Origin: Oligoflexus sp. | Lineage (GTDB): Bacteria; Bdellovibrionota_B; Oligoflexia; Oligoflexales; Oligoflexaceae | Assembly (NCBI GenBank): GCA_041736305.1 | Contig: JBGSTX010000078.1 | Location: 1 to 20,700, forward strand | Reading direction: 5' to 3' | DNA: 20,700 bases | In this document: in pieces, positions 2,654 through 18,062 of the stretch | Layout of the letters: each line of letters begins with the position of its first letter | Numbering within the stretch: the stretch's first letter is position 1 | Made by a program: the position numbers and the translations under genes | The notes under the pieces: generated by a model | What the model was told of the DNA's origin: nothing | Seen by the model: only the letters and a program-made list of their open reading frames with translations | Database searches by the model: none

Positions 2654-3859
2654 TTAGCTCAAAAGTCCCAGAATTTCATAGGTCAGACCCTTGCCTGTAC
2701 TTCCACCACGTTGGGAGCTGAAGTAGAGTCGATCCCCCGAAGGACTGATGGCTGGTCCCGCAATTTCTGAATCATCCTGATTTTCAACCTGCAGGAGGGG
2801 GATAACATCGCCGCTAGGGCCAATGACACAAATTTGCATATTGCCACCATCTTCAGCGACAAGAAGATGCCCATCACGGCTTACCGTTACATTGTCGACG
2901 CCACGTAGAATAGGGTTCCGAGAGCTTTGCGCATCATAGATGACCCTGAGCCTGCCCGCTTCAATATCGTACTGCCAGACTCGGTTATCACCCTTCGTCG
3001 TGAACGTTACGATGCCGTCATGGTAGCAAATACCTTCGCCTCCATCGAACTTACGAGCATTTCTCACCTGGTAGCGAGTTTCGGTCTGGCCAGATTCAGG
3101 AGTTGGATTGCTAAGCGCTTGCCACGTCACGGACCCAGCACTGTTGACGATCGCCGCTTGAAGAGTGCCGCGGTCAAAGTTCATACGCCCATTGTCGATA
3201 GATTCAGGGATAAAGCGATAGAGGCAGCCATCAGACGTATCTTCCGTCAAATATGCATGCATATGGGTCGGGTCGATCGCAACGGCTTCATGTTTGAAGT
3301 AGCCCAGGCCCGAACAAACTTTGGCATCATTTCCATAGATACTGCACTCGTAAACCCGACCGTAGCTAATTTCCTCGCATGACAACCAAGTATCCCAAGG
3401 CGTCGCACCACCAGCGCAGTTGCGGCTGCTGCCGCTCAGGATGCTATAGGCATCGATGATTTCGCCCTGCTTATTGAAACGCAGAGCTCCGACTCCCCCA
3501 GCTCCATCTCCCGCTTCTGAATTCGAAACATAGATCCAGCCCCCATCAGCTGTCGCATAGCATGCACCTCCATCGGGTTCTACGTGCCACAGATAGCTGC
3601 TGCTTTGTTCGCTAGTCAGTCCAACTGGTCTTCCTGAAGCTGCTAGCAGGCGCGAACTAAAGCCTTTCGGCAAGCGAATGCCGTTGGCATCAGGAGCTTG
3701 TAGAGGGCCAATTTTGCTGAGACTGCGATAGCAGAGGAGTGGGCAGGCTGTCACCAAAGAACTCAAGCCGCCGCCACCGATTCCCAGCAAACCAAGTCCA
3801 CTAATCGAATAACCGAGTAACTGACGTCGATTCACCATCAAGCTTTTCTGCTCGAGCAC
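2654..3859 (-). CDS. phoX: PhoX-family (DUF839) alkaline phosphatase, Tat-exported
   Basis: Twin-arginine NRRQLL signal. Motifs PDGG, NCAGGATPWDTWLSCEE, FKHEAVA, TED, GEG, DNVTV, AEDG, SEIAGP, SSQ. GGGGAG precedes the GTG start. Confidence 0.88.
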   Translation of the reverse strand: MLEQKSLMVNRRQLLGYSISGLGLLGIGGGGLSSLVTACPLLCYRSLSKIGPLQAPDANGIRLPKGFSSRLLAASGRPVGLTSEQSSSYLWHVEPDGGACYATADGGWIYVSNSEAGDGAGGVGALRFNKQGEIIDAYSILSGSSRNCAGGATPWDTWLSCEEISYGRVYECSIYGNDAKVCSGLGYFKHEAVAIDPTHMHAYLTEDTSDGCLYRFIPESIDNGRMNFDRGTLQAAIVNSAGSVTWQALSNPTPESGQTETRYQVRNARKFDGGEGICYHDGIVTFTTKGDNRVWQYDIEAGRLRVIYDAQSSRNPILRGVDNVTVSRDGHLLVAEDGGNMQICVIGPSGDVIPLLQVENQDDSEIAGPAISPSGDRLYFSSQRGGSTGKGLTYEILGLLS

Positions 3860-4085: not shown

Positions 4086-5603
4086 TCAGTTCGGAGTCCT
4101 AAGACAGCTGTATCCGGTGGCCTTCGAGCAGATTCCCCAGTCCTTAGCCGTTTGCACTTCGAGAGGACAGGCCTCTTTGCAATCCGGAAGCTTATCTTCG
4201 CTTAGCTTTACATCTACCTTGCAGGGCACGCCTGCGGTAGCTGCTTCCTTGTCATCCCTTTGCACGTAGCCGTAATCGCCTTCGGTAGCTTTGGGAGCAA
4301 AGCTGACACCTCGCGCAACAAAAGGCGCGTTTGGGCACTTGGGGAAGTAATGGCCCGAAGTTTCAACGACGGATGGGGTAGGTTCGGGAAGATTGTCGAT
4401 GAAGCTCGCGATCTGCTCGCGGCGCCGTTTGACACTGGCCTTCAGGCGGTCGAGATCCTTCGTAAAGCCTTTTTTCTCCTGCTCTAGAATCCGTGGACCG
4501 ATAAGAGTGGCCATCGCATCGATCTCGGCGATGATTTCTGGCTCGGACCAGAGGGTCGTCATGTAGTCTTTAATCGTAGCAGCCAATTTTGCTCGATAGA
4601 ACTTCGAAGCATAGATTTTAGCGGCGAGATTGTTCTTCGCATAAACCTGCAGGGTTTCTCGCACACCGTCCCGATTCAGAATTTGATCCGTTCCCCAAGG
4701 CAAAACATTCATCTTCCCGTCTTTATCAAAGTAAATATAGGAGTTATTCGTGCCGAGGGTCATGCCATCCCAATGGGTCATAATCACTTCCATTGCCCAA
4801 TAGCGGATAAACTGATCCATGTTAACGAGCTGGCTGAGCGATTCCAGTTCTTCGGTCTTATCGTTTTTGATGGCTTCTATCACAGCCTTGATATCGGCGA
4901 GGGAGTCATCCTTCCATCCTTCGAGACCAGCGGCAAAACGTGGCAAAGCCCAGCTTTCGAAAGATTCTCCACCAATCTCGTAAAGGTTCCCGAGGGGCGA
5001 GCCGAACTTTTCTAGGATAAAAGACTTCTTCATCGGCTCAAGATTTACGAAAATGCCGTAGTCTTCGCCGTTGATCAGCACGTGAGCAAAGTTGCACTGA
5101 GGAGCCGGTATACCGGCCCGAGCGAAGATTTGATAGGAGAGGCACTGGCGAACATAGGCCTTATCCTGCAGCGAATTGTTGAGTATCAGGGCATCGGTCC
5201 CCCACTGCTTTTGAGCCGCTGCTCCTTGCGCCTTCACGAACTTGTCAAGCTTGATGTTCATCGAAGCCTTGGTCTTTGACTCGGAATTGCACCACGACTT
5301 TTTCTTAGCACCAATGTTTTGCATAGCAACGCCGTCGATTTTTATTTCTTCGAATTTGAACCAGTCGTACTGGGGCCCGATAAATCCGAAGATGCAGCGC
5401 CCGCCTTTCGGCTCTGCCTTGCGCAGCTCGTCCCACTGAGATGCGGTGATCTCAATTTGGACGATGTGATCTGCCTGATATAAACTATTCCTACTCACAG
5501 GAGCTCCATCTACTGCCTCTTGCACAGCCGCCTTCTTGACTGGCGAACAGGCTAAGAGGAGAAGACTAACGAAAGCTAAGATTTTCATGCAAGACGCCTT
5601 CAT
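4086..5603 (-). CDS. CotH kinase family lipoprotein with a C-terminal Cys-rich extension
   Basis: NIGAKKKS, LILNNSLQDKAYVRQCLSYQIFARAGIPAPQC, YGIFVNLE, NLYE, HWDG, NNSYIY, LPWGTD. Lipobox LLAC. Start set at ATG 5603 after GGGGAG; the ORF track starts it at TTG 5624. Confidence 0.9.
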   Translation of the reverse strand: MKASCMKILAFVSLLLLACSPVKKAAVQEAVDGAPVSRNSLYQADHIVQIEITASQWDELRKAEPKGGRCIFGFIGPQYDWFKFEEIKIDGVAMQNIGAKKKSWCNSESKTKASMNIKLDKFVKAQGAAAQKQWGTDALILNNSLQDKAYVRQCLSYQIFARAGIPAPQCNFAHVLINGEDYGIFVNLEPMKKSFILEKFGSPLGNLYEIGGESFESWALPRFAAGLEGWKDDSLADIKAVIEAIKNDKTEELESLSQLVNMDQFIRYWAMEVIMTHWDGMTLGTNNSYIYFDKDGKMNVLPWGTDQILNRDGVRETLQVYAKNNLAAKIYASKFYRAKLAATIKDYMTTLWSEPEIIAEIDAMATLIGPRILEQEKKGFTKDLDRLKASVKRRREQIASFIDNLPEPTPSVVETSGHYFPKCPNAPFVARGVSFAPKATEGDYGYVQRDDKEAATAGVPCKVDVKLSEDKLPDCKEACPLEVQTAKDWGICSKATGYSCLRTPN

Positions 5604-5932
5604 CAGCAAGTTTAACTCCCCCAAATTTTAATCGATCTATTCCTTCAGAATAGTAGAAGGCAAAAATTTAAGGAACGGGAAATCTCAAGGAGCTGTTACA
5701 TATTTTTGGCAAATGCTGCTCAATGTTTAGACATTCCACGCGCTCCTCGCGCTCAAAACCACTTTAGCTTATGATAATGCGTGTTCTCGAAGAGAACGAG
5801 GCTAGCCGTGAGTGGGGCGAACACCGGAGTGGCCAAAGTACGCGATGAGGATCGACCAGACCGATTCACGAAGTAAGCTTCTCTATGAGACGCACCATAA
5901 GCTTTCGCAAATCTACTGGATAAGGAGTCTTT

Positions 5933-7237
5933 ATGAGGAGAAGCGTTCTAGCAGGTTTCGCCGCAATATCGCTGATTCACGGCTGCCGAACCCAAAACGA
6001 GAATCCGGGTGACTCTGAGGTCAAGATCAGCGCTGTTGACGAAACAGCCCGTAAGCAAGCCCAGCAATATTTCGCTCCAGATAAGCTGGTTAAGATCGAA
6101 GTGCAAATGAAGGACTGGGACACGCTGCGCAAGCTGAGTCCTGCGGGTGGCCGCTGCAACTTCAAATTTCTTGACTCGCAGTATAAGTGGATGAGCGCCG
6201 AAGAAGTCAGCGTCAACGGCGAAGTCTTCAAGAACGTCGGCATCAAAAAGCGCTCGCACTGTGGCTCCCTCAGCGATACCAAGCCTAATCTCGGCATAAA
6301 ATTCGATAAAAATGAAAAGAAAATGAAAGCCAGAGCCCTGGCCTCTATCGGCGTAAATACTCTCACCCTCAACAATTCTCGCCAAGATCCTAGCCTTGTT
6401 CGCCAGTGTCTCGCCTATCGCTTATTCGCCCGAGCCGGCATGGCTTCGCCACGTTGCAATTATGCACATATTAAGGTCAACGGCCAGGATCTGGGCATCT
6501 ACGTGAACGTGGAGAATATGGACGCCCAAGCCATGGGCCGCATCTACGGTTTGCCGCTGGGCCGTCTCTACAAAATCGAGGTTGATGAATTCAAGGACAC
6601 CCATCTCGAGCGCTGGGCAGCCCATATCGAGGGTTTTGACGACTCAACTGACGTCGATGATGTAAAGGCGGTTATTGCGGCCATAAAAAGCGACAAGAGT
6701 CCTCTTCTCGAAGAGCTGGGAAGGCTTGTTGATTTCGACCAATACATCAAATACTGGGCTATGGAGATGCTGATCATTCACTCCGATGGCATGATCCGCC
6801 ACAATAACAACACTTATGTTTATTTTCCGCCCCAAGGCAAGATGCAGATACTGCCCTCAGGCCCTGACAAGACGCTGGTCTATGACGATAAACCGGTGCA
6901 TAAGATGCTTTATCGGAAAGATTTCATTGCCGGTCGTCTCCTCGAACGAGAGGTCTATCGGCAAAAGCTCAAAGACACCGTTAAGAGTCTGCTCTCACAA
7001 ATCTGGAACGACTCGGTACTAGAACAGGACATCAATAAGGACCTGGCCCTCATCGACGGTTATATCAGCACGGACCAGAAAAAAGATCACGAAGATTCAC
7101 TCGCCTCACTGCGCGTCAATATCAAGAATCGACCAGCTGAGATGCAGGAAATCATTCAAATGATCGAAGAGGCCGGTAATCCGCCAGCGCCGCGTCCGGC
7201 GCCGGCAGATACGACTCCGACCGGTTCAGATCGTTGA
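5933..7237 (+). CDS. CotH kinase family lipoprotein
   Basis: NVGIKKRS, LTLNNSRQDPSLVRQCLAYRLFARAG, LGIYVNVE, HSDG, NNNTYVY, LPSGPD. Lipobox-like IHGC. TAAGGAG SD. Confidence 0.9.
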   Translation: MRRSVLAGFAAISLIHGCRTQNENPGDSEVKISAVDETARKQAQQYFAPDKLVKIEVQMKDWDTLRKLSPAGGRCNFKFLDSQYKWMSAEEVSVNGEVFKNVGIKKRSHCGSLSDTKPNLGIKFDKNEKKMKARALASIGVNTLTLNNSRQDPSLVRQCLAYRLFARAGMASPRCNYAHIKVNGQDLGIYVNVENMDAQAMGRIYGLPLGRLYKIEVDEFKDTHLERWAAHIEGFDDSTDVDDVKAVIAAIKSDKSPLLEELGRLVDFDQYIKYWAMEMLIIHSDGMIRHNNNTYVYFPPQGKMQILPSGPDKTLVYDDKPVHKMLYRKDFIAGRLLEREVYRQKLKDTVKSLLSQIWNDSVLEQDINKDLALIDGYISTDQKKDHEDSLASLRVNIKNRPAEMQEIIQMIEEAGNPPAPRPAPADTTPTGSDR

Positions 7238-7507: not shown

Positions 7508-8563
7508 ATGAGACTATTGCGTCGACGATCTGCTTTACTCATAGTTGTTTTTGCGGGCATTTTCTTCATAGCTTGCCGAACGAACCAATCCGAAAAGCTT
7601 GACAGCGGTCTTGCTGCTACTGATGCTGCACAGTCAGTCCAAAGCCCGCTCGTTGGCAAGGGCTGGGCGGATGATGATTGCTTAAGTTGTCTTTGCACAC
7701 TTGCGGTTTTTCCGGAAAAAATTGGCTACCAAAATGTATCGGAAGACCCTCAGATCGAATGGACTAATAAGGTCGGATACTGCGGGCAAAAAAAGGCCTG
7801 TGGCCCATTTGAGTATTCGAATGTCTGGTCACCGATTCTCTTAGTAAAGCGTTGCGGAGAATCGGATTTGTTAGCGCGCTGGACCTTGCGAGAGCAGACA
7901 GCAGAAACCTTGGCTTGCTTTTATGAACAGCCCTTTTTTGGGGGCACTGAACAGTGCTATAAGCCCGGTAAATACGCTGAATTTGATGCGAATATGACGA
8001 ATAAATTCTCGAGCATGCGGGGCTTTTACGGCGCTCAAGTGCAAGCCTGGCCCGAAAAAAAGTTTCAAGGTCAGGTCTTTAATGGCAACGAGGACTGGAT
8101 CCCTGAATTACCTGCTGAGATCAATAATAAGATTTCATCTTTCAATATTGCTGTGAGCCCGAACCGCCCCGCTCCAGCTGATCTACAGGTAAGCCTGAAT
8201 GCAGCGGAATTGACGAACGAAATCAAAAGAGAGGTCGGTTCGCATGGCGATCACGAGTCTTTTGTTAAAGCCCTGCTCGATCTTGCTTACAAAAAGATCA
8301 ATGCTAAAGCCGCACAGCAAAATAAGCGTGGATATCACATATTCATTTCCAAGATTCGAGTGAAAGTCGATCGGAATTTCAAGGACCTTGCTTATACTGG
8401 ATCTTTCGACTTCAAAGGTGATGATTCTTATGGGGTTTTTGCTTTTCGTTCAGGGACCGCCATCTTACATGGCGATGGTGGCTGGAAAAATTGGGCGATG
8501 GAGGGCCATTTTGAGCGCACTGGCGACAGAGGAAGTATTGCGACGTTTTCCGAACATCCCTGA
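7508..8563 (+). CDS. Lipoprotein with a Cys-rich region, a beta/gamma-crystallin domain and a YvgO-like C-terminal domain
   Basis: Lipobox FIAC. Two Greek-key motifs: CFYEQPFFGG..TNKFSSMR and AWPEKKFQG..NNKISSFNI. C-terminus YGVFAFRSG..HGDGGWKNWAMEGHFER resembles the GDGG(W/Y)xNW motif of Bacillus YvgO-type proteins. Confidence 0.75.
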   Translation: MRLLRRRSALLIVVFAGIFFIACRTNQSEKLDSGLAATDAAQSVQSPLVGKGWADDDCLSCLCTLAVFPEKIGYQNVSEDPQIEWTNKVGYCGQKKACGPFEYSNVWSPILLVKRCGESDLLARWTLREQTAETLACFYEQPFFGGTEQCYKPGKYAEFDANMTNKFSSMRGFYGAQVQAWPEKKFQGQVFNGNEDWIPELPAEINNKISSFNIAVSPNRPAPADLQVSLNAAELTNEIKREVGSHGDHESFVKALLDLAYKKINAKAAQQNKRGYHIFISKIRVKVDRNFKDLAYTGSFDFKGDDSYGVFAFRSGTAILHGDGGWKNWAMEGHFERTGDRGSIATFSEHP

Positions 8564-8718
8564 TTGAAGTCTGGATGGACTCTCATTGGGACTCTTGTGG
8601 GCTCCAGGGCTCTTGCTGAGGCTTACTCGGTCTTCTTTCCGATCCCTCGAGGGTGATCTCGAATATAAGGGCGCAAAGCCGGAACTGACTCTCATTCGAC
8701 TGCAGAGGCAGCTTAATT

Positions 8719-8752
8719 AAAAAGTCCCGCTCGACTGAGTCGGCGGGACTTT
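8719..8752. terminator. Intrinsic terminator, probably bidirectional
   Basis: AAAGTCCCGC-T-CGAC-TGA-GTCG-GCGGGACTTT stem with A/T tracts, between convergent transcription units. Best U-tract is on the minus strand. Confidence 0.8.
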
Positions 8753-8776
8753 AAAAAATCAATTTTGTCTGTGCGA

Positions 8777-9553
8777 TCAGTGCTGAGTTTCCGAGACGGA
8801 ATCATCTTCAGCAACTGAACCTTTAGCGCCTTGTGCTAGCTCGCTAACTTTCGTTGTGAATGCTTTAACATCCAAAACGATTCCGCATTGTTGATCATCC
8901 AAGGTGAAAATACCTTCAGAAATCACATCGAAGAGCAGCTCGCGCTCCTTCTCTGGGACGCCGGCAGCTTCGATGATTTCGACGAGAGAGCCGCTACCGC
9001 TGATCTGACCTTCATAGCTCTCAGCTGTGAAGGTCAAAGTATCAGAGGCTGTGGCTCCCTCTTCCAGAGGCTTCATGGTCAGGAACTTAGGATAGCCCGT
9101 GCTCGGATCACGCTCGATCGAGAAGGAATATGCAGACTCAAGTTCTGGGATTTCTTCAAGAGTAGGCAAAATGACGCGGAGAGCTAAAAGAACGCCGCGC
9201 GCTTGGTCAAGGGTCAGCCACTCATCGTCTAGATCATCAGCGACGATATAGTCAGTCAGAAGGTCGATAGCTGCTTCAGCGGCAGCATAGACATTATGAC
9301 CGATTGCATGCAGGCGACCTTCGTCGTCAATAAATACTTCATCGATTCCATCATCTTCGAAATCTTCTTCGTCTTCGCTTAACTCGTCGTCTGCACTAGC
9401 CTCGAGCTCTTCTTCTTCTGCTTCAAGTTCTTCAGATTCTGCAACTTCTATGGCTTCTTCAAGGAAGCGCGAAGCCCGGTCATCAGAGAAAACAAACGCG
9501 TCTTCAAAAGTTTGGAGTAGATCGTCAAGGGATATGCCGAGATAAGAAATCAT
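8777..9553 (-). CDS. Highly acidic hypothetical protein
   Basis: 258-aa ORF with AGGAG SD. Manual count gives 69 D/E versus 13 K/R. Terminator follows directly. Confidence 0.8.
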   Translation of the reverse strand: MISYLGISLDDLLQTFEDAFVFSDDRASRFLEEAIEVAESEELEAEEEELEASADDELSEDEEDFEDDGIDEVFIDDEGRLHAIGHNVYAAAEAAIDLLTDYIVADDLDDEWLTLDQARGVLLALRVILPTLEEIPELESAYSFSIERDPSTGYPKFLTMKPLEEGATASDTLTFTAESYEGQISGSGSLVEIIEAAGVPEKERELLFDVISEGIFTLDDQQCGIVLDVKAFTTKVSELAQGAKGSVAEDDSVSETQH

Positions 9554-9653
9554 GGAGGACTCCTGGTGGTTCGAAGAGTGAATCTGTTACAGGAGTGGAG
9601 GACGGAGGTCAAGTCAATTAGACTGGAGAGCCGACGTGGGTGAAGGCTTTGAC

Positions 9654-10256
9654 TCAGCTAGGTATTCTCTTCCGACAGCGCACAATGCCATTGTCGAGAA
9701 AGCCCGTCGTAGCTACCGAGCGAAAAATGAGCCCTTCGATATGAGCGCTGGGATCGGCTAGCACAGCCATGCACTGATCGATCGTCTTGAGAGGGGGAAG
9801 AGTCACTATCTTTGGGGAAACGTAAACTCTAGGGAGCAGAGCATACCGCTCACCGTAGCTGAGAGAATCTAGAATCTTATCTTCCCGCTTAAGTAGATCG
9901 AAGACAAAGAATCTATCCTCAGACTTGAGCCACTCGGCATCTATCACATTCCAGCCGCTCTTTGGTCGGAAGATCCGGCTGAGCTCGTCGGAAACATCGC
10001 TGGCCAGAACCTTACTGTGCCTTTGCCCCATGCGATTGAAAAAGACTAGCTCCTGCTGCGGGTCACTCGGAATATGGACCTGTGCCCGATGGCCATGAAT
10101 CTTGGTCTGTCCCCACCAGCCGAGCGAGAGAATTTGCTCGATAGCCCCACGATTGGGCGCTATCTCGGTCTTAGGATGAATTGGACGAATATGCTTAGGT
10201 CCCTTCGTCACGCGTCTACCACTCAAAATTGTCGCTTCGAAAATACCCGGCAACAT
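9654..10256 (-). CDS. Stand-alone ATP-dependent ligase/capping-enzyme-type nucleotidyltransferase domain
   Basis: Motif I QTKIHGHR (K52), FFNR, motif III VIDAEWL, IIIa FFVFDLL, YGERYALL, motif IV EGLIFR. Ends without an OB-fold domain. Confidence 0.8.
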   Translation of the reverse strand: MLPGIFEATILSGRRVTKGPKHIRPIHPKTEIAPNRGAIEQILSLGWWGQTKIHGHRAQVHIPSDPQQELVFFNRMGQRHSKVLASDVSDELSRIFRPKSGWNVIDAEWLKSEDRFFVFDLLKREDKILDSLSYGERYALLPRVYVSPKIVTLPPLKTIDQCMAVLADPSAHIEGLIFRSVATTGFLDNGIVRCRKRIPS

Positions 10257-10339
10257 CTGCTCTACCTTCGCTCTCGCTTCTCGCTGTATCAGTCAGGGAC
10301 TGACTTATACACAGAGCTGAAGGGCCTGACAATGGCGCG

Positions 10340-11014
10340 CTAGCGGATATAGTGCCTCAATTTAAGATGTCTTAAGATATCGCGTAGCTCGTCGGGTTTC
10401 TTCACATGACGACGGGCTAGATCTGCCGCACCTGGTCTCGCCCTCATCGACATAGGCTTGAAGAGATTCTCAAGTACGTCAGCTGGTAGGGTTTGCAGTG
10501 CTTTCACGACAGCGTCATAATTTGCTTCAAGGACCGCGTCGTTGAAGCGAATGCTCGCATAATCCCGCACGATCAAATCTTCTGCGGCTTTCTCGCCCCA
10601 GCGCTCGGCAAATTCTTCGAGATCTTCTTCGCTAATACCTGCACTGGCGTCTTGCACAACATACATGGCCATGGTTTCAAGGCCCTGGATTTTGAAGCCA
10701 CTACCATCGCCTGTATAAAGTCTCTTCGCATACTCTTCACCAGCGAAGTTGAGTATCGTGTTCTTATGAACGCTCGCTTCGCCCTCATAGTATTTAGCCT
10801 GGTCCTGAGCGCTGCGAAAGGCATCGACAGCTTCGGAAACATCGGGAGGAGGAGTGATGACGTTTTCCGCCTGCTTGGCTGCTGGCGAGGACGAACGCTT
10901 AGTCTTGAAGGGATCTGGGCTTTTAGCTGCAGCTTTTGGGTCGCTTGCCGAGCTGAGCTTTTTCCCAGGTTCTCGCTTCGATGCAGTTGCCGTCTTTTTC
11001 TTGCTCGGTGCCAT
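10340..11014 (-). CDS. Hypothetical protein with a Lys/Ser/Ala-rich N-tail and helical core, coupled to ligD
   Basis: 224-aa ORF with GGAGG SD, starting 20 nt after the ligD stop. Confidence 0.8.
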   Translation of the reverse strand: MAPSKKKTATASKREPGKKLSSASDPKAAAKSPDPFKTKRSSSPAAKQAENVITPPPDVSEAVDAFRSAQDQAKYYEGEASVHKNTILNFAGEEYAKRLYTGDGSGFKIQGLETMAMYVVQDASAGISEEDLEEFAERWGEKAAEDLIVRDYASIRFNDAVLEANYDAVVKALQTLPADVLENLFKPMSMRARPGAADLARRHVKKPDELRDILRHLKLRHYIR

Positions 11015-11034
11015 AGGGAACCTCCCGGCTCTTC

Positions 11035-13332
11035 TTATCGACGCTTTTGCCTAGGAGTTGAGTGCCCAGCAGTTTTTGCCTGGCGCCGTCTCTCGTTAAG
11101 CGCTTCTTGCAGCTCACTGAGGGGAACTGCTGCTTTTTGGATATCGAGCCAAAGATCACCCCATTTCGCTAAACGTTTCGGAAGACTAGCGATTGTAAAA
11201 ACGCTGGGATCAAGACCATGTTTGACCTCGGACCAGCGAAGTGGAGTAGAAACCGTTGCATGGGGTCTGGGTCGGACTGAGTAGATAGCGGCCATCGTTT
11301 GGCCCACACGGTTCTGCAGGTAGTCGAGGTAGATTAATTTAGTCCGCCGGCTAGGCGAGCGCTCGAGACTGGTCGTGTGCGGCAAGAGCTCGTTCACCTC
11401 TTTGCACACTTCCTCGGCGAAGACGCGGGTCTCGTCGAAGACTTTGGTGCCGCTAACGGGCACGAATACGTGCAAACCTCGCGAACCAGAAGTCTTGCAA
11501 AATGCCTTGGCACCGAGACTCTCGACCAAACGCTTGACGGTGTTTGCAACATCGATCACCGCGCTGAAGGCAATCTCACCTGGGTCGAGATCGAATACGA
11601 CAAAATCCGGCTGATTGATGGTTTGCACACGCGACAGCCAAGTATTTATTTCGATGCACCCGAGATTGACGAGGAAGAGAAGGTCAGCCTCCCTATTGCA
11701 GAGCGCGTAATTCACCGATTGCCCGGAACGACCTGAGACTATCGTTGCGGTCTCCATCCAGCGGGGAACCTGTCCGGAAATTTCCTTTTGAAAAAATCCT
11801 GCGGCTGTCACCCCATGCGGCTGACGATGGAGAGATTGGGGACGATCCTGGAGATGAGGAAGCATATAAGGGGCAATGAGCTGGTAATAGTCCAGAACAT
11901 CGCCTTTGGTGATGCCCTCGTCTGGCCAGTAGACCTTCGACCGACTGCTGAGCGAGAGCTGAGGCTTTAGAATCGGCTGACCTGTGCGAGCCACGACGTG
12001 ATGGACCGAACCTGCTAAAGCCTTGGCTGGAGTTTCGCGACGCGCCTGCTGAAGCTCCCGCGCTCCTTGCGCTTCGATCATGACGCTCTGCCCATAGGCT
12101 TCGCCGGATTCACGCCGCAGAATTCCTATCCCCTGGGCATCGTCTGCGCTGGACACGACGATCTTGAGATAAGGATTTTGGATTTTTAGCATAGCCAAAG
12201 CTTTGAGCCTTTGCTCGCAAGGCAACTCGCCCAGATCCCATCCGTCAGCATGGAGAAGATCATAGACGTAGAGTGCATAGCGGACTTTAGCTAGCTTCTG
12301 AGTGCGCCCGCGAGGCCGCGGTTTATCGTCTTCGTCCCAAGGAACAATGAGGGCATCGAAGAGCAGGGGACCGCCTATAGGCCTGAGATTCGCTGTGAGC
12401 TCAGGAAAACGCTTGCTGAGAGGCAGGTTTGTTTTGGATCGAACTTGAGTCTCGCCGTCTTGAGCGATGAGGACCTGCACACGATAACCGTCGTAAAGCG
12501 CCTGACTGAGATCACCAAGCGGCTCCTCTCCTGCCGAGGCCTGGCGCCAAGTCTCAAGCTTCTGCCAGTCGATTGCCTCTGCCCTATGAGCCAACTTTTG
12601 ATACTTGACAGCTAGTTTCTTGCGGGTTCCCCCCAGCCCAATATGAGCATCTTTTTTCAGCTTAGCCTGACTTTTCTTGCTGAGGACCTGGGTATCCCAA
12701 ACCTTACCCTCTTCGGGAGACTTTGCTCCGATCTCCCCTAGAGTGCGCCCGCTGCGACTTGATCGATCGGCATGCGTGATATCACCGCGATTCGCATGGC
12801 TATCGTGCTTTTTTACGAACAGCCAGTTTTTACCATCTCCCTTAGCCAGGCGAATCAGGGCAAATTCGCCCTTTAGCTTCTGGCCTTCGAGGATAAAAGT
12901 CAAATGACCCTTGGCGTATCCGCGCCGCAGCGCGTCTTCAGCATCTATCGCCGGATAGCTGACCGCACGTGCCGTATAAGTCCCCTCATCCCAGATCATC
13001 ACGACCCCGGCTCCGTAGTGGCCACGGGGTATGACTCCCTCGAAATTGTTGTATTCCATGGGGTGGTCTTCGACCTCGACCGCCAAACGGCGTTCCATGG
13101 GATCGAGGCTCGGGCCTTTAGGCACAGCCCAGCTCTTCATCGTCCCATCGATTTCGAGGCGGAGATCGTAGTGCCTGCGACTTGCGTCATGGAGCTGAAT
13201 GACAAAACGCAGTTCGGCAGTTTTAGTCTTTCGAGTGCTCGTCTTTTTACGCCGGGTTTTGCCTTCTTCCTTGCCCTCGGGCTCGGGAGTTCCCTTGAAA
13301 TTTCTTTTGCTACGATACTTATCTAGCGCCAT
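11035..13332 (-). CDS. ligD: LigD-like NHEJ protein: 3'-phosphoesterase, degenerate ligase remnant, primase-polymerase
   Basis: Phosphoesterase: FVIQLHDASRRHYDLRLE..KSWAVPKGPS..LAVEVEDHP..YGAG. Polymerase: KVYWP..TKGDVLDYY..FFQK..FDLDP..KTSGSRGLH..YLDYLQN..YSVR. Ligase remnant: ALYDGYR, FDALIV, YVYDLL. Confidence 0.93.
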   Translation of the reverse strand: MALDKYRSKRNFKGTPEPEGKEEGKTRRKKTSTRKTKTAELRFVIQLHDASRRHYDLRLEIDGTMKSWAVPKGPSLDPMERRLAVEVEDHPMEYNNFEGVIPRGHYGAGVVMIWDEGTYTARAVSYPAIDAEDALRRGYAKGHLTFILEGQKLKGEFALIRLAKGDGKNWLFVKKHDSHANRGDITHADRSSRSGRTLGEIGAKSPEEGKVWDTQVLSKKSQAKLKKDAHIGLGGTRKKLAVKYQKLAHRAEAIDWQKLETWRQASAGEEPLGDLSQALYDGYRVQVLIAQDGETQVRSKTNLPLSKRFPELTANLRPIGGPLLFDALIVPWDEDDKPRPRGRTQKLAKVRYALYVYDLLHADGWDLGELPCEQRLKALAMLKIQNPYLKIVVSSADDAQGIGILRRESGEAYGQSVMIEAQGARELQQARRETPAKALAGSVHHVVARTGQPILKPQLSLSSRSKVYWPDEGITKGDVLDYYQLIAPYMLPHLQDRPQSLHRQPHGVTAAGFFQKEISGQVPRWMETATIVSGRSGQSVNYALCNREADLLFLVNLGCIEINTWLSRVQTINQPDFVVFDLDPGEIAFSAVIDVANTVKRLVESLGAKAFCKTSGSRGLHVFVPVSGTKVFDETRVFAEEVCKEVNELLPHTTSLERSPSRRTKLIYLDYLQNRVGQTMAAIYSVRPRPHATVSTPLRWSEVKHGLDPSVFTIASLPKRLAKWGDLWLDIQKAAVPLSELQEALNERRRQAKTAGHSTPRQKRR

Positions 13333-13344
13333 CCTCGATAGGCC

Positions 13345-14400
13345 TCATGCGCTGCGGGCCAAACGTTTGGTCTTGGTCGCGACCTTGGCTTTTTTGGCTT
13401 TTGTGCTTTTGGTTTTCGCTTGAACCTTCTTCTTGCCCACTACTTTCTTCTCTGTTTTGGCTTTATTGGCCCGAGGAGGCTTGGCTTCTTGCCTAAGCTC
13501 TGATTCCGTAAATTTACGGGGTGGTATGATCTGCAGCTGGGTAAGATAGGCCGAAATGCTGACGGCATTCAATGCCGCAGTCTCTTTTACTTCATTGTCG
13601 AAGTAGGCAAAAACCAGTCGAGGTATTTTGCTGGGTTCCCCAGGAATAAGTAGCTCAGCATCAACGGGTTGCGACCCTAAGGACCAGGCTTCAAAGCGTT
13701 TAGCCCACCTTTCAAGCGCAGTCTTCGAGTAGCCACGCGGATGCTTAGATTCATCGGCATGAAGACGAAGATAGATAAAATCGCTACAGACATCTTCTAT
13801 ATAGGGCCAGCGGCCGTCGGTATCGCCGACGACGATAGCGATTCCATACTTTCGCGCCAACTCAACAAAAGCCACCGACCTGAAGCTTGGATGCCTGCCT
13901 TCGACAGCGTGTCTGAGAGGAAGGTTTTCGCTGACGTCTAGAACCGTGCGTCCGGCTAGCCAATCCGAATGCCCTTTAGCTAAAGCAGCTGCAGCGAAGG
14001 TATCGCGTGGCAAAGCTGCAAAGAATGGCTCAAAGCGAGCTGGATCAAAGGGCATATTTGGCGGAAACTGCCAGAGTATAGGCCCGAGCTTTTCCCGCAG
14101 GGCGAGGAGTCCTGACGCTAGAAAATTACTCAAGGGCTTTTCAAAATCTTTGAGCCGACGTTCATGAGTAATGTACTTCGGTCCTTTGATTGAAAAGACA
14201 AAATCCTCGCTGGTCTGCTCGTACCAGCTCTGGTAGCTTGCGGGCTTCATGAGAGAGTAGAAAGTCCCATTTACCTCGATCGAACGCACCTGGCGGCTCG
14301 CATACGCTAGCTCATCTTTTTGCTTCAGTCCCTCAGGATAGAAGCTTCCTCGCCAACCCTCAAATGTCCAGCCTGACATTCCTATAAAGATTGCTCCCAT
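13345..14400 (-). CDS. DUF72 domain-containing protein with a Lys-rich C-terminal tail
   Basis: IGMSGW..FYP..IEVNGTFY..FVFSIKGPKYITH..LGPILWQFPP..HAVEGRH..FIYLRLH..YFDN. AGGAGG SD before ATG 14400. Ends 12 nt before ligD. Confidence 0.93.
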   Translation of the reverse strand: MGAIFIGMSGWTFEGWRGSFYPEGLKQKDELAYASRQVRSIEVNGTFYSLMKPASYQSWYEQTSEDFVFSIKGPKYITHERRLKDFEKPLSNFLASGLLALREKLGPILWQFPPNMPFDPARFEPFFAALPRDTFAAAALAKGHSDWLAGRTVLDVSENLPLRHAVEGRHPSFRSVAFVELARKYGIAIVVGDTDGRWPYIEDVCSDFIYLRLHADESKHPRGYSKTALERWAKRFEAWSLGSQPVDAELLIPGEPSKIPRLVFAYFDNEVKETAALNAVSISAYLTQLQIIPPRKFTESELRQEAKPPRANKAKTEKKVVGKKKVQAKTKSTKAKKAKVATKTKRLARSA

Positions 14401-14582: not shown

Positions 14583-14966
14583 ATGTCTAGTTCTAAGAAA
14601 ATGCGCATCGCTGGTTGGGTGCTTTCGGGACTGGTTGCAGCTTTTTTTTGCTTTAGTGCCACAGGTAAGTTCCTACAGCCGCCTGAGATGGCCGAAATGC
14701 TTCCACACTTGGGTTACACAAGCGAAACAGTTAGAGCGATAGGATATGTGGAAGTTGCCTTGGCCCTGGCTTTTCTTATTCCTAGAGCCAGCTTCATTTT
14801 TGCTCTTTTGTTAACAGCCTACCTGGGTGGAGCAGTCGCAACCCACGTGCGCATTGGCGACCCCTTCTATTTTCCTATCGTTCTCGGTATCGTCCTCTGG
14901 ATTGCCTACTACCTGCGTCGCCCTGACGTCATTAAACTCGCACTAAGTCCCTGTGAAAAGCGCTAA
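14583..14966 (+). CDS. DoxX-like family membrane protein
   Basis: Four hydrophobic segments; SATGK, LGY, IGYVE, LLTAYLGGAVATHVR motifs. AAGGAG SD. Confidence 0.88.
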   Translation: MSSSKKMRIAGWVLSGLVAAFFCFSATGKFLQPPEMAEMLPHLGYTSETVRAIGYVEVALALAFLIPRASFIFALLLTAYLGGAVATHVRIGDPFYFPIVLGIVLWIAYYLRRPDVIKLALSPCEKR

Positions 14967-15866: not shown

Positions 15867-18062
15867 TCAGTACTCGATAGCTTCGTTCACCCTGCAAGCG
15901 TCGAACTTAGTACTGAATTTAAAGCTGCTGGTCGCTGAGAACTTGTTGCCGTCATCGTGAGTTTTCAGTCCGAAGCGAGATATTGACAACCACCGTCCAT
16001 CCAGCTTGATCAAGCGATTGATATCGAGCGACTGAACGGCTTCCTGCCACCAGACTCCCTGAGTCATAATAGGCAAGCAGCTCTTTGGCACTAGGTCGCG
16101 ATGCGAACTACGACCTAATTCGACCAGCTTATTCTCCGCAACTCTATAAGCTACTGCACCTGAAAATTGCAGCTCGCTGCCGTAATCTGACCCTCCTTCT
16201 TCCTCCTTGCCTGTCAACTCGACGAGCGGAAAGCTAAAAATCTTGCTCGCTGCATCATAGAAGAAGGCATGATGATCGCCGGTGACATCCGAGTAGCTGC
16301 CTCGTTGACCGTGGACTTTGTTATCGATTCGTTTGAGATCCTGCGGACGGCTTGCATCGAAGAGCGACACCTGAATTCCTTGATACCATGCGAATTCGCC
16401 TTGATCATCGGCATCGTAGCCGAGTCCAAGGAGTCGATTATTCCCTAGAGGATGCAGATACATCGAAAAACCAGGAATGAACAGCTCCCCTTCGAGCATC
16501 GGTTTGAGGGGGTTCGACATATTGATGGCGTAGAGCGGATCGGTCTTCTTAAAGGTCACCATATAGGCATAATCGCCTGTAAAACGAACCGCACGAATGT
16601 CTTCGCCAGGCTTACCGTAATGGTACAGACCATTCACAAGCTTGAGTTGACCTGCGTCAGACTTCAGTATCCAGAGATGATTGAGACCCTCACCCACTAT
16701 TTTTCCTGGATATTTCTGAGCTGCTAAATCTGCTTCGTAAGAGGTCGTCGCTACGGCTAGCACTCCCTTGTCCACGTACTCCTTAAAGCTGAATTGATTG
16801 CGAATAAAGCCTCTTACCGAACCAGTAGCCTTGAGCCTGACAATCTCCGCCTGAGGGTCAACCGCAATCTGATTGATAAAGAGAGAGTCCCTCATTGCGC
16901 TATATATGTCTTTCTTTGGCTCCTTACCTGGCTCCACCCAAGGTTGCCAGTTGAGACCGGATTTGGTGGTGTAGATATGTTTGGAGCTCATATATATTTC
17001 ACCGCTCGAACCGAGCGTTGCAACCATGGATGGAGCTTTGCGGAGATCATTGGTGTTGATACCAATAACTTTGGTAAGAGAAAAATCCATATCAGGTAGC
17101 TTTGGTTTAGTGATCGCATTGCAGGGAACGCCCTGCACCTTCTGCTCTTGCGTGATGACGGGATGATCTGTCACGACTCCATCTAGGCTTCTATCGACCA
17201 GATGCAGCTCGTCTCGTAAAACCAAATAAAGATGATTCGCCATAAAGCGAGAATTGACATAGTCACCCACAAAGTCCTGCTGATATAGCTTCACTGGCAA
17301 GGATTTGGCTTTGGTTTGAAAAACCATGACTCGCACCTGCCTGGGACTGGGTGAGGGCCTAAAGGAAGACGAACCTACAGAATAAGATTCGTAGATTGAT
17401 GGAGGGTTGAGCTGATCGGTAGCGACTTCGCCGACCAAGGTAAGGCGTTCACCGTCGCTGTACATCTTGATTCCGCTTATGAAGCGAGTATGTTCGCTCG
17501 GGTCAGTGGGAAACTCCTGCTCTAGTTCTACAGAACCCACGGGTTTCAGAGTTTTCCTATCGATGACTTCGAGCTTGTTCTGATGCAGTATATAGAGGCT
17601 GGAGTCTGTAACTTTAACAAAGTCTGCTTCATCGACGCCTTTCTCTTGGATATTAGTAATGGCGTTGGGATCTTCTACTCCCTCCGCGCTGCTGGCTTCC
17701 TCTTGCTGGGCTGGGGCACTCTCCTGCATGATGGGGCCGTCTTTGTTGATCTTCTTCCAGTACTCACGTTCTGCTAGATCGCTCTTAAGCTTGATCTGCA
17801 GATGTTTGCGTACAGTCGCCTGCATATCGTTGCAGCTGCGGAAGGTCGCCCTATCGGCGGCTGAAGATATGGAGCCCGTACTGAGGGTCTGCAGTTCCTC
17901 AGCCGCCTCGATAAACGCCTGCTGAGGATCCCCCAACTCCGCTAACTGCGCGTCAGCGACTCGCTGCTTCTCTTTCTCTTCGCTGCTTCGACCGCAGGCT
18001 ACCGCACTCAAGAGCGCAAGACTCGCGTATAAAATTCGTCGCGTACCACCGAATGTGTCCAC
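15867..18062 (-). CDS. Beta-propeller domain lipoprotein (Beta_propel family)
   Basis: TNIQEKGVDEADFVK, NQFSFKE, GEDIRAVRF..YMVTFKKTDPLY..GELFIPGFSMYLHP, SLFD motifs. Lipobox AVAC. AGGAG SD before GTG. Confidence 0.9.
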   Translation of the reverse strand: MDTFGGTRRILYASLALLSAVACGRSSEEKEKQRVADAQLAELGDPQQAFIEAAEELQTLSTGSISSAADRATFRSCNDMQATVRKHLQIKLKSDLAEREYWKKINKDGPIMQESAPAQQEEASSAEGVEDPNAITNIQEKGVDEADFVKVTDSSLYILHQNKLEVIDRKTLKPVGSVELEQEFPTDPSEHTRFISGIKMYSDGERLTLVGEVATDQLNPPSIYESYSVGSSSFRPSPSPRQVRVMVFQTKAKSLPVKLYQQDFVGDYVNSRFMANHLYLVLRDELHLVDRSLDGVVTDHPVITQEQKVQGVPCNAITKPKLPDMDFSLTKVIGINTNDLRKAPSMVATLGSSGEIYMSSKHIYTTKSGLNWQPWVEPGKEPKKDIYSAMRDSLFINQIAVDPQAEIVRLKATGSVRGFIRNQFSFKEYVDKGVLAVATTSYEADLAAQKYPGKIVGEGLNHLWILKSDAGQLKLVNGLYHYGKPGEDIRAVRFTGDYAYMVTFKKTDPLYAINMSNPLKPMLEGELFIPGFSMYLHPLGNNRLLGLGYDADDQGEFAWYQGIQVSLFDASRPQDLKRIDNKVHGQRGSYSDVTGDHHAFFYDAASKIFSFPLVELTGKEEEGGSDYGSELQFSGAVAYRVAENKLVELGRSSHRDLVPKSCLPIMTQGVWWQEAVQSLDINRLIKLDGRWLSISRFGLKTHDDGNKFSATSSFKFSTKFDACRVNEAIEY

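What the first reader, a model, noticed from the sequence alone, without database searches (positions are those of the whole stretch)
8777..14400. Atypical NHEJ-like cluster without Ku: DUF72, ligase-dead LigD, unknown protein, stand-alone minimal ligase, acidic protein
Seen: five co-oriented genes with gaps of 12, 20, 83 and 100 nt, ending at one terminator. LigD keeps its phosphoesterase and polymerase motifs but its ligase is degenerate. A separate ligase-type nucleotidyltransferase with an intact catalytic Lys lies two genes downstream, and no Ku gene is in the window. Established: canonical bacterial NHEJ is Ku plus LigD, often adjacent. Inference: a split or outsourced end-joining system in which ligation moved to a non-orthologous small ligase and the intervening protein may replace Ku.
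Basis: partly seen in the sequence, partly recalled or inferred. Interest (0 to 1): 0.85.

Follow-up and report, generated by a model that had tools for sequence, protein, structure and literature searches.

The report
Ku-free repair cassette, outsourced mini-ligase
A conserved DNA-repair gene cluster of Bdellovibrio-like bacteria keeps the end-cleaning and gap-filling parts of the LigD repair enzyme but has a dead sealing part, and probably hands sealing to a tiny separate ligase working with an unknown partner protein, without the usual end-binding protein Ku.

Summary
The core is LigD* (phosphoesterase and polymerase intact; ligase lacking the catalytic Lys and the OB domain), a 224-aa unknown protein (P3) and a 200-aa ligase core with KxHG and no OB domain (P4). 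P3 is followed by P4 in 29 of 29 loci, LigD* lies upstream in 23, DUF72 nearby in 18, the acidic gene in 1 (this window). The cassette is in 18 of 131 genomes of the phylum; 13 of the 18 have no Ku detected, and the other 5 carry a separate Ku-LigD locus. P3 matches neither Ku nor Mu Gam and has no solved fold. Best reading (0.5): a Ku-independent nick/gap repair module in which P4 seals, with P3 standing in for the missing OB domain (complex prediction: weak support only). 'P3 replaces Ku' stays possible (0.2) but has no positive evidence. No activity has been shown. Ten paper searches found no description. This scan noted the cassette before on other genomes.

The parts
13345..14400 (-). DUF72 (YecE-family TIM barrel, predicted DNA-lesion nuclease), 351 aa, with a Lys-rich C-terminal tail; frequent but dispensable member
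   Evidence: PF01904 E 1e-60; near the cassette in 18 of 29 loci; tail compared
11035..13332 (-). LigD*, 765 aa: phosphoesterase - dead ligase remnant - polymerase
12850..13197 (-). LigD* 3'-phosphoesterase domain, His/Asp/Arg and His/Tyr motifs intact
   Evidence: PF13298; motifs
12058..12570 (-). LigD* degenerate nucleotidyltransferase (about aa 255-425): Leu279 in place of the catalytic Lys, motifs IV and V eroded, no OB domain, fast evolving
11149..11910 (-). LigD* primase-polymerase domain, catalytic Asp motifs intact
   Evidence: PF21686 E 3e-87; motifs
10340..11014 (-). P3, 224-aa protein of no known family: long helix (57-100), beta hairpin, helical C-terminal part; constant partner gene of P4
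9654..10256 (-). P4, 200-aa stand-alone ATP-dependent ligase nucleotidyltransferase domain, motif I KIHGHR (Lys52), no OB domain
8777..9553 (-). Acidic 258-aa genus-wide gene; co-oriented neighbour here, NOT a member of the cassette
8716..8757 (-). Terminator-like hairpin between the acidic gene and the convergent gene at 7508-8563
   Evidence: z -5.0

Best explanation
A Ku-independent DNA repair module for nicks and short gaps (single-strand-break or excision-repair type), possibly also used at double-strand ends. DUF72, or an Xth AP endonuclease, opens or trims the lesion (inferred). The LigD* phosphoesterase heals the 3' end and the polymerase fills the gap, probably with ribonucleotides (domains and motifs shown; activities inferred from the family). 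LigD*'s own ligase is dead (shown by sequence). Sealing is done by P4, which adenylylates on Lys52 (motifs and fold shown; activity inferred). P4 has no OB domain, so P3 most likely acts as its second subunit and supplies DNA engagement (inferred from gene linkage; weak computational support). The His in KxHG is the signature of ligases that seal nicks with a 3'-OH RNA strand, which would suit ribonucleotide-filled gaps (inferred).
For: Linkage: P4 follows P3 on the same strand in 29 of 29 loci, LigD* is within 1.4 kb upstream in 23, and 5 of the 6 misses have under 500 nt of upstream contig. Dead ligase: 23 of 24 cassette-type LigDs with the domain lack the motif I Lys, 1 keeps a Lys without DG, and 1 more has deleted the domain, whereas 7 of 7 Ku-linked LigDs keep KxDG. 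The OB block is absent from the 20 cassette rows shown. Against three same-genus relatives the remnant is 33-37% identical, versus 82-86% for the phosphoesterase, 68-70% polymerase, 79-82% P3 and 69-76% P4. P4: Lys52, Gly55, Arg57, Arg75, Asp106, Glu108, Phe119, Asp120 in 120 of 120 homologs, Glu174 in 119; fold closest to archaeal DNA ligases (Z 18.3, rmsd 3.4, 182 aligned) and LigD ligase 1vs0 (Z 16.5), Rnl2 Z about 10. ATP-dependent DNA ligases need the OB domain for self-adenylylation, and KxH marks Rnl2 and DraRnl (PMC1807946, passages). Of 18 cassette genomes, 13 show no Ku and 11 no OB-bearing ATP ligase. P4-P3 complex: weak support, 0.46 against best control 0.00; runs 0.46/0.00/0.46, agreeing in at least 0% of contacts, partner pLDDT at least 73; the mark was reached by 116 of 157 solved and 2 of 215 mismatched pairs, but at 0.60 or under by only 18 solved pairs and both mismatches. 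In G073, P3 is replaced by a hydrolase gene, P4 has lost motif I and DUF72 is truncated (one case). An Xth-family gene lies between P3 and P4 in G071 and G119 (one genus, so one event) and xth-polA is near the cassette in G016. DUF72 is related to UV-damage endonuclease and enriched near DNA-damage genes (PMC11791011, passage). LigC with Prim-PolC is a precedent for LigD-like parts in excision repair (PMC5663958, passages).
Against: No activity, binding or expression is shown. The complex score lies in the band the tool calls more often wrong than right. In a phage-like contig pair (L161, L162: one sequence) a distant P3 is followed by a P4 homolog that has lost the catalytic Lys, so the pair can persist without ligase chemistry. 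P4-like proteins also occur with no P3 nearby (5 loci), so P3 is not required by the wider family. G019 has P3-P4 with no LigD in 9 kb of flank and no polymerase-domain hit. P3 is neutral overall (median pI 6.8, net charge 0), which is not an obvious DNA-binding character. DUF72 is absent from 11 of 29 loci. This genome has another ATP-dependent ligase with an intact KWDG motif that could seal instead.
Confidence: 0.5

Rival explanations
1. True end joining with a new end-binding factor: P3 dimerises through its long helix, caps and bridges double-strand ends as Ku or Mu Gam does, and recruits LigD* and P4.
For: 13 of 18 cassette genomes show no Ku. P3 sits directly after LigD* and is among the most conserved parts. 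It has a 44-residue helix followed by a beta hairpin, loosely like Gam/Gp157-type proteins (recalled). 2 of 79 family members touch PF22709 Mu_Gam-Sipho_Gp157-TOTE at E 0.034 or worse.
Against: Profile against Mu Gam: probability 0.7%, helix only (single-sequence template). No Ku family or fold match. 5 of 18 genomes keep a Ku-LigD locus as well. P3 stays with P4 where LigD is absent. P4 would still lack an OB domain.
Confidence: 0.2
2. P3-P4 is a phage-derived module with another job (RNA or hybrid nick ligation, adenylylation or protection of ends) recruited next to LigD*; LigD* hands its product to the NAD-dependent or another host ligase.
For: KxHG in 114 of 120 homologs is the Rnl2/DraRnl signature. 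Atlas neighbours are 71-93% viral for P3 (recognition under the tool's mark, so weak) and 92-95% viral for P4. The best predicted-structure match of P3 is a viral protein (E 2e-3, TM 0.44). A Lys-less P4 is kept beside P3.
Against: P4's fold is much closer to DNA ligases than to Rnl2 (Z 18 against 10). The pair stays beside a ligase-dead LigD in 23 of 29 loci across several classes of Bdellovibrionota-type genomes. No phage homolog was found in 8 viral-contig scans or, apart from one marginal tail-protein hit, in 7 phage searches.
Confidence: 0.15
3. LigD* works with an ordinary Ku encoded elsewhere (unassembled in this genome), so this is non-conventional but Ku-dependent NHEJ with a separate ligase.
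For: The assembly is 92.7% complete in 392 contigs; 7 of the 13 other genomes of the genus have Ku; split NHEJ architectures are common (PMC7719229, passages).
Against: 13 of 18 cassette genomes show no Ku, several of them 90-96% complete. Each of the 5 Ku genes in cassette genomes has its own LigD neighbour. No Ku was seen in the cassette loci screened.
Confidence: 0.08
4. A decaying relic: a broken LigD with chance neighbours.
For: The ligase remnant evolves fast; G073 and G083 show decay or rearrangement.
Against: Strong purifying selection on all other parts (dN/dS 0.03-0.15 where computable); conserved order in 29 loci; correlated distances among parts (Spearman 0.48-0.84, 0 of 299 permutations, though kinship alone gives this).
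Confidence: 0.02

Closest known systems
Bacterial NHEJ: Ku plus LigD of PE-LIG-POL order (NCBIfam PRK05972, TIGR02776-TIGR02779)
   Same: Domain order, intact phosphoesterase and polymerase motifs; the ligase remnant is homologous to the LigD ligase.
   Different: No catalytic Lys, no OB domain, no linked Ku; two extra genes of which one is of no known family; coexists with canonical Ku-LigD in 5 genomes.
Mycobacterial LigC plus Prim-PolC (PMC5663958, passages read)
   Same: LigD-like polymerase and a separate ATP-dependent ligase, acting with excision-repair enzymes on short gaps filled with ribonucleotides.
   Different: LigC is a core NTase-plus-OB ligase (listed as 'minimal' in PMC12133292); P4 has no OB. 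Here the polymerase is still fused to a phosphoesterase and a dead ligase, and P3 has no counterpart.
Minimal ATP-dependent DNA ligases (Chlorella virus ligase, Lig E)
   Same: Same nucleotidyltransferase fold (Z 13-14).
   Different: The simplest known DNA ligases keep NTase and OB (PMC12133292, passage); P4 is NTase only, with KxHG.
T4 Rnl2 and Deinococcus DraRnl nick-sealing RNA ligases (PMC1807946, passages read)
   Same: Motif I His in place of Asp; no C-terminal OB domain; a separate module is needed for nick recognition.
   Different: P4's fold is nearer DNA ligases (Z 18 against 10); any accessory module would be a separate protein; it sits in a DNA-repair operon.
Phage Mu Gam / Gp157-like end-binding proteins
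   Same: Similar size and a long N-terminal helix; Gam is reported to act as a Ku analogue (recalled).
   Different: No significant profile match; only marginal Pfam touches in 2 of 79 members.
PR1 phage heterodimeric DNA ligase (PDB 9hu3; entry title only)
   Same: Precedent for a two-chain DNA ligase; P4 aligns at Z 9.2.
   Different: P3 showed no match to either chain in the structure searches; I did not read the paper.

Membership tests
Canonical bacterial NHEJ (Ku + LigD) | Ku (PF02735) linked to ligD or present in the genome | tested here: not met
   None in this 92.7%-complete assembly; none detected in 13 of 18 cassette genomes
Canonical bacterial NHEJ (Ku + LigD) | LigD ligase with motif I KxDG | tested here: not met
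   Leu279; no cassette-type LigD has KxDG (0 of 25 rows)
Canonical bacterial NHEJ (Ku + LigD) | LigD ligase OB domain (PF04679) | tested here: not met
   Absent in alignment; no PF04679 hit at any cassette position
Canonical bacterial NHEJ (Ku + LigD) | Phosphoesterase and primase-polymerase domains with catalytic motifs | tested here: met
Canonical bacterial NHEJ (Ku + LigD) | Joins double-strand ends in vivo | not testable with these tools
   needs experiment
ATP-dependent DNA ligase (P4) | Nucleotidyltransferase fold with motifs I, Ia, III, IIIa, IV | tested here: met
ATP-dependent DNA ligase (P4) | Motif I KxDG | tested here: not met
   KxHG in 114 of 120, KxDG in 4
ATP-dependent DNA ligase (P4) | C-terminal OB domain | tested here: not met
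   200 aa, model ends at motif V; no longer fused form among 8000 scored candidates, a weak negative
Rnl2-type RNA ligase (P4) | Motif I KxHG | tested here: met
Rnl2-type RNA ligase (P4) | Rnl2 C-terminal domain and closest fold among RNA ligases | tested here: not met
   No C-terminal domain; Z about 10 to Rnl2 against 18 to DNA ligases
Ku (P3) | Ku beta-barrel/bridge family match | tested here: not met
   No PF02735 among the families listed for 79 members (top 25 of 76 shown) or for P3 itself; Ku search of the genome is blank; model is mostly helical
Mu Gam / Gp157 (P3) | Profile or fold match to Gam | tested here: inconclusive
   hhalign 0.7% against one Gam sequence; marginal PF22709 in 2 of 79; structure lists dominated by the helix
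DUF72 / YecE | PF01904 over the curated cut-off | tested here: met
   206 bits against 25.3

The most novel reading that the evidence does not exclude
P3 and P4 form an undescribed two-subunit ligase in which a protein of unrecognised fold replaces the OB domain and also binds DNA ends, so that LigD*-P3-P4(-DUF72) is a complete break-repair machine needing neither Ku nor a conventional ligase, probably built from a module shared with phages.
Probability: 0.3. Interest if true: 0.88.

Novelty: new variant of a known kind. Interest (0 to 1): 0.7.

Why it matters
The simplest characterised ATP-dependent DNA ligases keep an OB domain, and bacterial LigD end joining is defined by Ku. An OB-less ligase activated by a separate protein of unrecognised fold would be a new ligase architecture and a living example of the proposed stand-alone adenylyltransferase that gains specificity from added modules. 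It would also show that genomes scored as 'LigD only' by domain surveys can hide a different pathway, and it gives DUF72 a defined, testable partner set. All four proteins are small or of well-studied type, and one record with the cassette is titled as a named species (L081), so the test is direct.

Tried and rejected
Acidic gene as a member: rejected. Ku or a second LigD elsewhere in this assembly: not found. Gam family search in the own genome: blank, but the control also did not ring, so uninformative. P3 fold: nothing at E<=0.001 in PDB by Foldseek; best Z 4.2, long helix only; no solved-sequence match below E 0.05; I did not fold P3's C-terminal part alone, so 'new fold' is not shown. Phage origin of the pair: 8 of 8 viral-contig scans gave no confirmed relative, and 7 phage tblastn searches gave one marginal tail-protein hit. 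These searches find close relatives only. Fused forms: none for P4 among 8000 longer candidates (weak); of 100 P3 hits all were 261 aa or shorter except one 3546-aa repetitive protein. DUF7376 family search in 3 genomes: nothing over cut-off. Promoter scan: 4 sites against 3.5 expected, none on the coding strand; by eye no shared motif upstream of ligD*. One origin of the cassette LigDs: they form one side of a branch (23 against 7 rows, support 82, unrooted, two partial rows left out), not shown and not rejected. The P3 family tree did not finish its careful search and is poorly resolved. Literature: DUF72+LigD 0 papers; LigD+Bdellovibrio+NHEJ 0; split/heterodimeric phage ligase with OB 0; nothing relevant in the listings. 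The library lacks most subscription journals, and I read no supplements, where neighbourhood tables could list this cassette.
Full report
1. Observation. The window is contig C278 of genome G000; the closest homologs come from records titled Oligoflexus. The five minus-strand ORFs, the 12/20/83/100-nt gaps and a stable terminator-like hairpin are as described. Family scans give DUF72; LigD with phosphoesterase and polymerase over cut-off but a ligase score of 36.5 against 227.75; a sub-threshold ligase hit for the 200-aa protein (P4); and nothing meaningful for the 224-aa (P3) or acidic protein. Ku was not found in the assembly (92.7% complete). The genome has one LigD polymerase domain and one other ATP-dependent ligase, with an intact KWDG motif, next to a metallo-beta-lactamase-fold gene.

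2. What belongs together. A profile of the P3 family hit 18 of 131 genomes of the phylum, in 13 of 55 genera. A P4 profile hit the same 18 strongly, plus one decayed copy and three weaker genomes (22 of 131). I pooled those 18 loci with 11 further loci (three duplicates dropped). In these 29 loci P4 follows P3 on the same strand in 29. LigD lies within 1.4 kb upstream in 23; five of the six misses have under 500 nt of upstream contig, and G019 is a real miss. DUF72 is near in 18. The acidic gene is near in 1, this window. The acidic gene occurs in 12 of the 13 other genomes of the genus and in none outside it (of 61 searched), with no cassette gene in the 9 loci screened. It is a neighbour, not a member.

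3. The LigD ligase is dead throughout. Of 25 cassette-type LigDs, 23 have another residue at the catalytic Lys, one keeps Lys but not DG, and one has deleted the domain; 7 of 7 Ku-linked LigDs keep KxDG. Three of the 25 rows are not shown to lie beside P3 (G073, and two on other contigs). The OB domain is missing in the 20 cassette rows displayed. Phosphoesterase and polymerase motifs are kept wherever the domain is in view. Between this window and three same-genus relatives the remnant is 33-37% identical, against 68-86% for every other part; dN/dS is 0.15-0.46 against 0.03-0.15, with synonymous sites near saturation and several values not computable.

4. P4 looks catalytically intact but incomplete. 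Lys52 and the other motif residues are invariant or nearly so in the 120 homologs listed (of 165 found). The model (pLDDT 92) is a bare nucleotidyltransferase domain, closest to archaeal DNA ligases (Z 18.3) and the LigD ligase (Z 16.5), further from Rnl2 (Z 10). Motif I is KxHG in 114 of 120. PMC1807946 (passages) states that the OB domain is needed for self-adenylylation in ATP-dependent DNA ligases and that this His marks Rnl2 and DraRnl, which seal nicks with a 3'-OH RNA strand. PMC12133292 (passages) states that the simplest DNA ligases keep NTase and OB. So P4 should need help.

5. P3 is the unknown. It has 100 relatives at the 50%-cluster level, a confident model (pLDDT 88.7; 44-residue helix, beta hairpin, helical tail), no clear solved-structure match, and weak likeness to uncharacterised viral proteins. 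It does not match Ku, and against Mu Gam the profile probability is 0.7%. The P4-P3 complex prediction gave weak support: 0.46 against a best control of 0.00, one of three runs at 0.00, runs agreeing in at least 0% of contacts, partner pLDDT at least 73; at this level 18 of 157 solved pairs and both of the 2 passing mismatches (of 215) fall. In G073, where P3 is replaced by a hydrolase gene, P4 has lost motif I and DUF72 is truncated. In a phage-like metagenomic sequence (L161, L162) a distant P3 abuts a P4 homolog (probability 99.9%) that lacks the catalytic Lys, with no LigD in 3-4 kb. The pair is therefore older than its tie to LigD, and can outlive ligase chemistry, which counts against my reading as well as for a physical partnership. 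P4-like genes without P3 also exist.

6. Ku. Ku is in 9 of 131 genomes: 5 of the 18 with the cassette and 4 of the 113 without. In the 5, Ku sits at a separate locus with its own LigD; in G007 that LigD is in three pieces. Eleven of the 18 also show no OB-bearing ATP-dependent ligase. These are mostly incomplete genomes and kin, so read these as 'not found'. Keeping both systems suggests the cassette does something other than Ku-type end joining. An Xth-family gene lies inside the cassette in two genomes of one genus, next to polA, and xth-polA is within 6 kb in G016. DUF72 is a TIM barrel related to UV-damage endonuclease with no assigned function (PMC11791011, passage) and a computational prediction of lesion-endonuclease activity (PMC3828134, passages). 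LigC with Prim-PolC fills short gaps with ribonucleotides and seals them in excision repair (PMC5663958, passages).

7. Mechanism. Shown: gene set, order, domain content, loss of the LigD ligase, conservation of P4's active site, selection. Inferred: lesion opening by DUF72 or Xth, 3'-end healing and gap filling by LigD*, sealing by P4 with P3 as accessory subunit (0.5). Rivals: P3 as Ku substitute in true end joining (0.2); a phage-derived P3-P4 module with another activity (0.15); Ku borrowed from elsewhere (0.08); relic (0.02).

8. Known and new. It works like a split LigD system but fails membership of canonical NHEJ on Ku, the ligase Lys and the OB domain, and P4 fails membership of standard DNA ligases on OB and KxDG. 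A 5,973-genome survey sorts genomes by detected domains only (PMC7719229, passages); by my inference such a survey would not separate this cassette from 'LigD only'. My ten paper searches found no description; the library is partial and no supplements were read. Earlier AI notes of this scan describe the same cassette on other genomes and word the P3-P4 pair as a two-subunit ligase; I saw them after forming the cassette reading, reused that wording, and do not count them as evidence. Verdict: real, conserved, new variant of a known kind; interest 0.70.

Noticed in passing
window 13345-13480; L020-L022, L025, L100: DUF72 in 6 of 18 copies ends in a Lys/Arg-rich tail (16-23 of the last 45 residues), like the tails of 7 Ku proteins of the same group (14-18 of 45); where DUF72 precedes LigD* it takes the position Ku has before canonical LigD. 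The other 12 copies lack the tail.
   Followed up: partly
L161:769-1302, L162:2840-3373: Catalytically dead P4 homolog (Thr at the Lys position, Gln at the motif IV Glu) overlapping the stop of a distant P3, beside an RRM gene in a phage-like contig.
   Followed up: partly
L103:6732-7499, L152:9011-9781: Xth-family (PF03372) gene inserted between P3 and P4, with polA converging on P4, in G071 and G119.
   Followed up: yes
L154:3710-7429 (G073): Decayed cassette: LigD*, a hydrolase gene in place of P3, P4 without motif I, DUF72 fragment.
   Followed up: yes
L108:6321-9880 (G007): The Ku-linked canonical LigD is split into three ORFs while the cassette of the same genome is intact; assembly error not excluded.
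   Followed up: no
L031:8485-8973, L029:9218-9865, L032:9115-9990: Solo P4-like OB-less ligase domains with no P3 nearby; L031's follows a TraM-like gene.
   Followed up: partly
L112:7182-8786 (G018): Solitary 534-aa LigD derivative: weak phosphoesterase plus polymerase, almost no ligase, in a genome with no Ku, P3 or P4 hit.
   Followed up: no
L021:10346-15258, also L020, L022: In three same-genus relatives the cassette is followed by a short-chain dehydrogenase and a zinc dehydrogenase, and in two of them by a large catalase: a general-stress neighbourhood.
   Followed up: partly
G000:C285 (L030) and C53: Second ATP-dependent ligase with an intact motif I, cut by the contig end, behind a metallo-beta-lactamase-fold gene; an OB-domain piece lies at the start of C53.
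   Followed up: partly
window 4086-5624 (-) and 5933-7237 (+): Two divergent, similar lipoprotein genes that look like CotH-type kinases (label recalled, not tested); 2654-3859 looks like a PhoX-type phosphatase (recalled, not tested).
   Followed up: no
window 14583-14966 and 15867-18062: DoxX-family gene divergent from the cassette; large beta-propeller protein PF09826.
   Followed up: no
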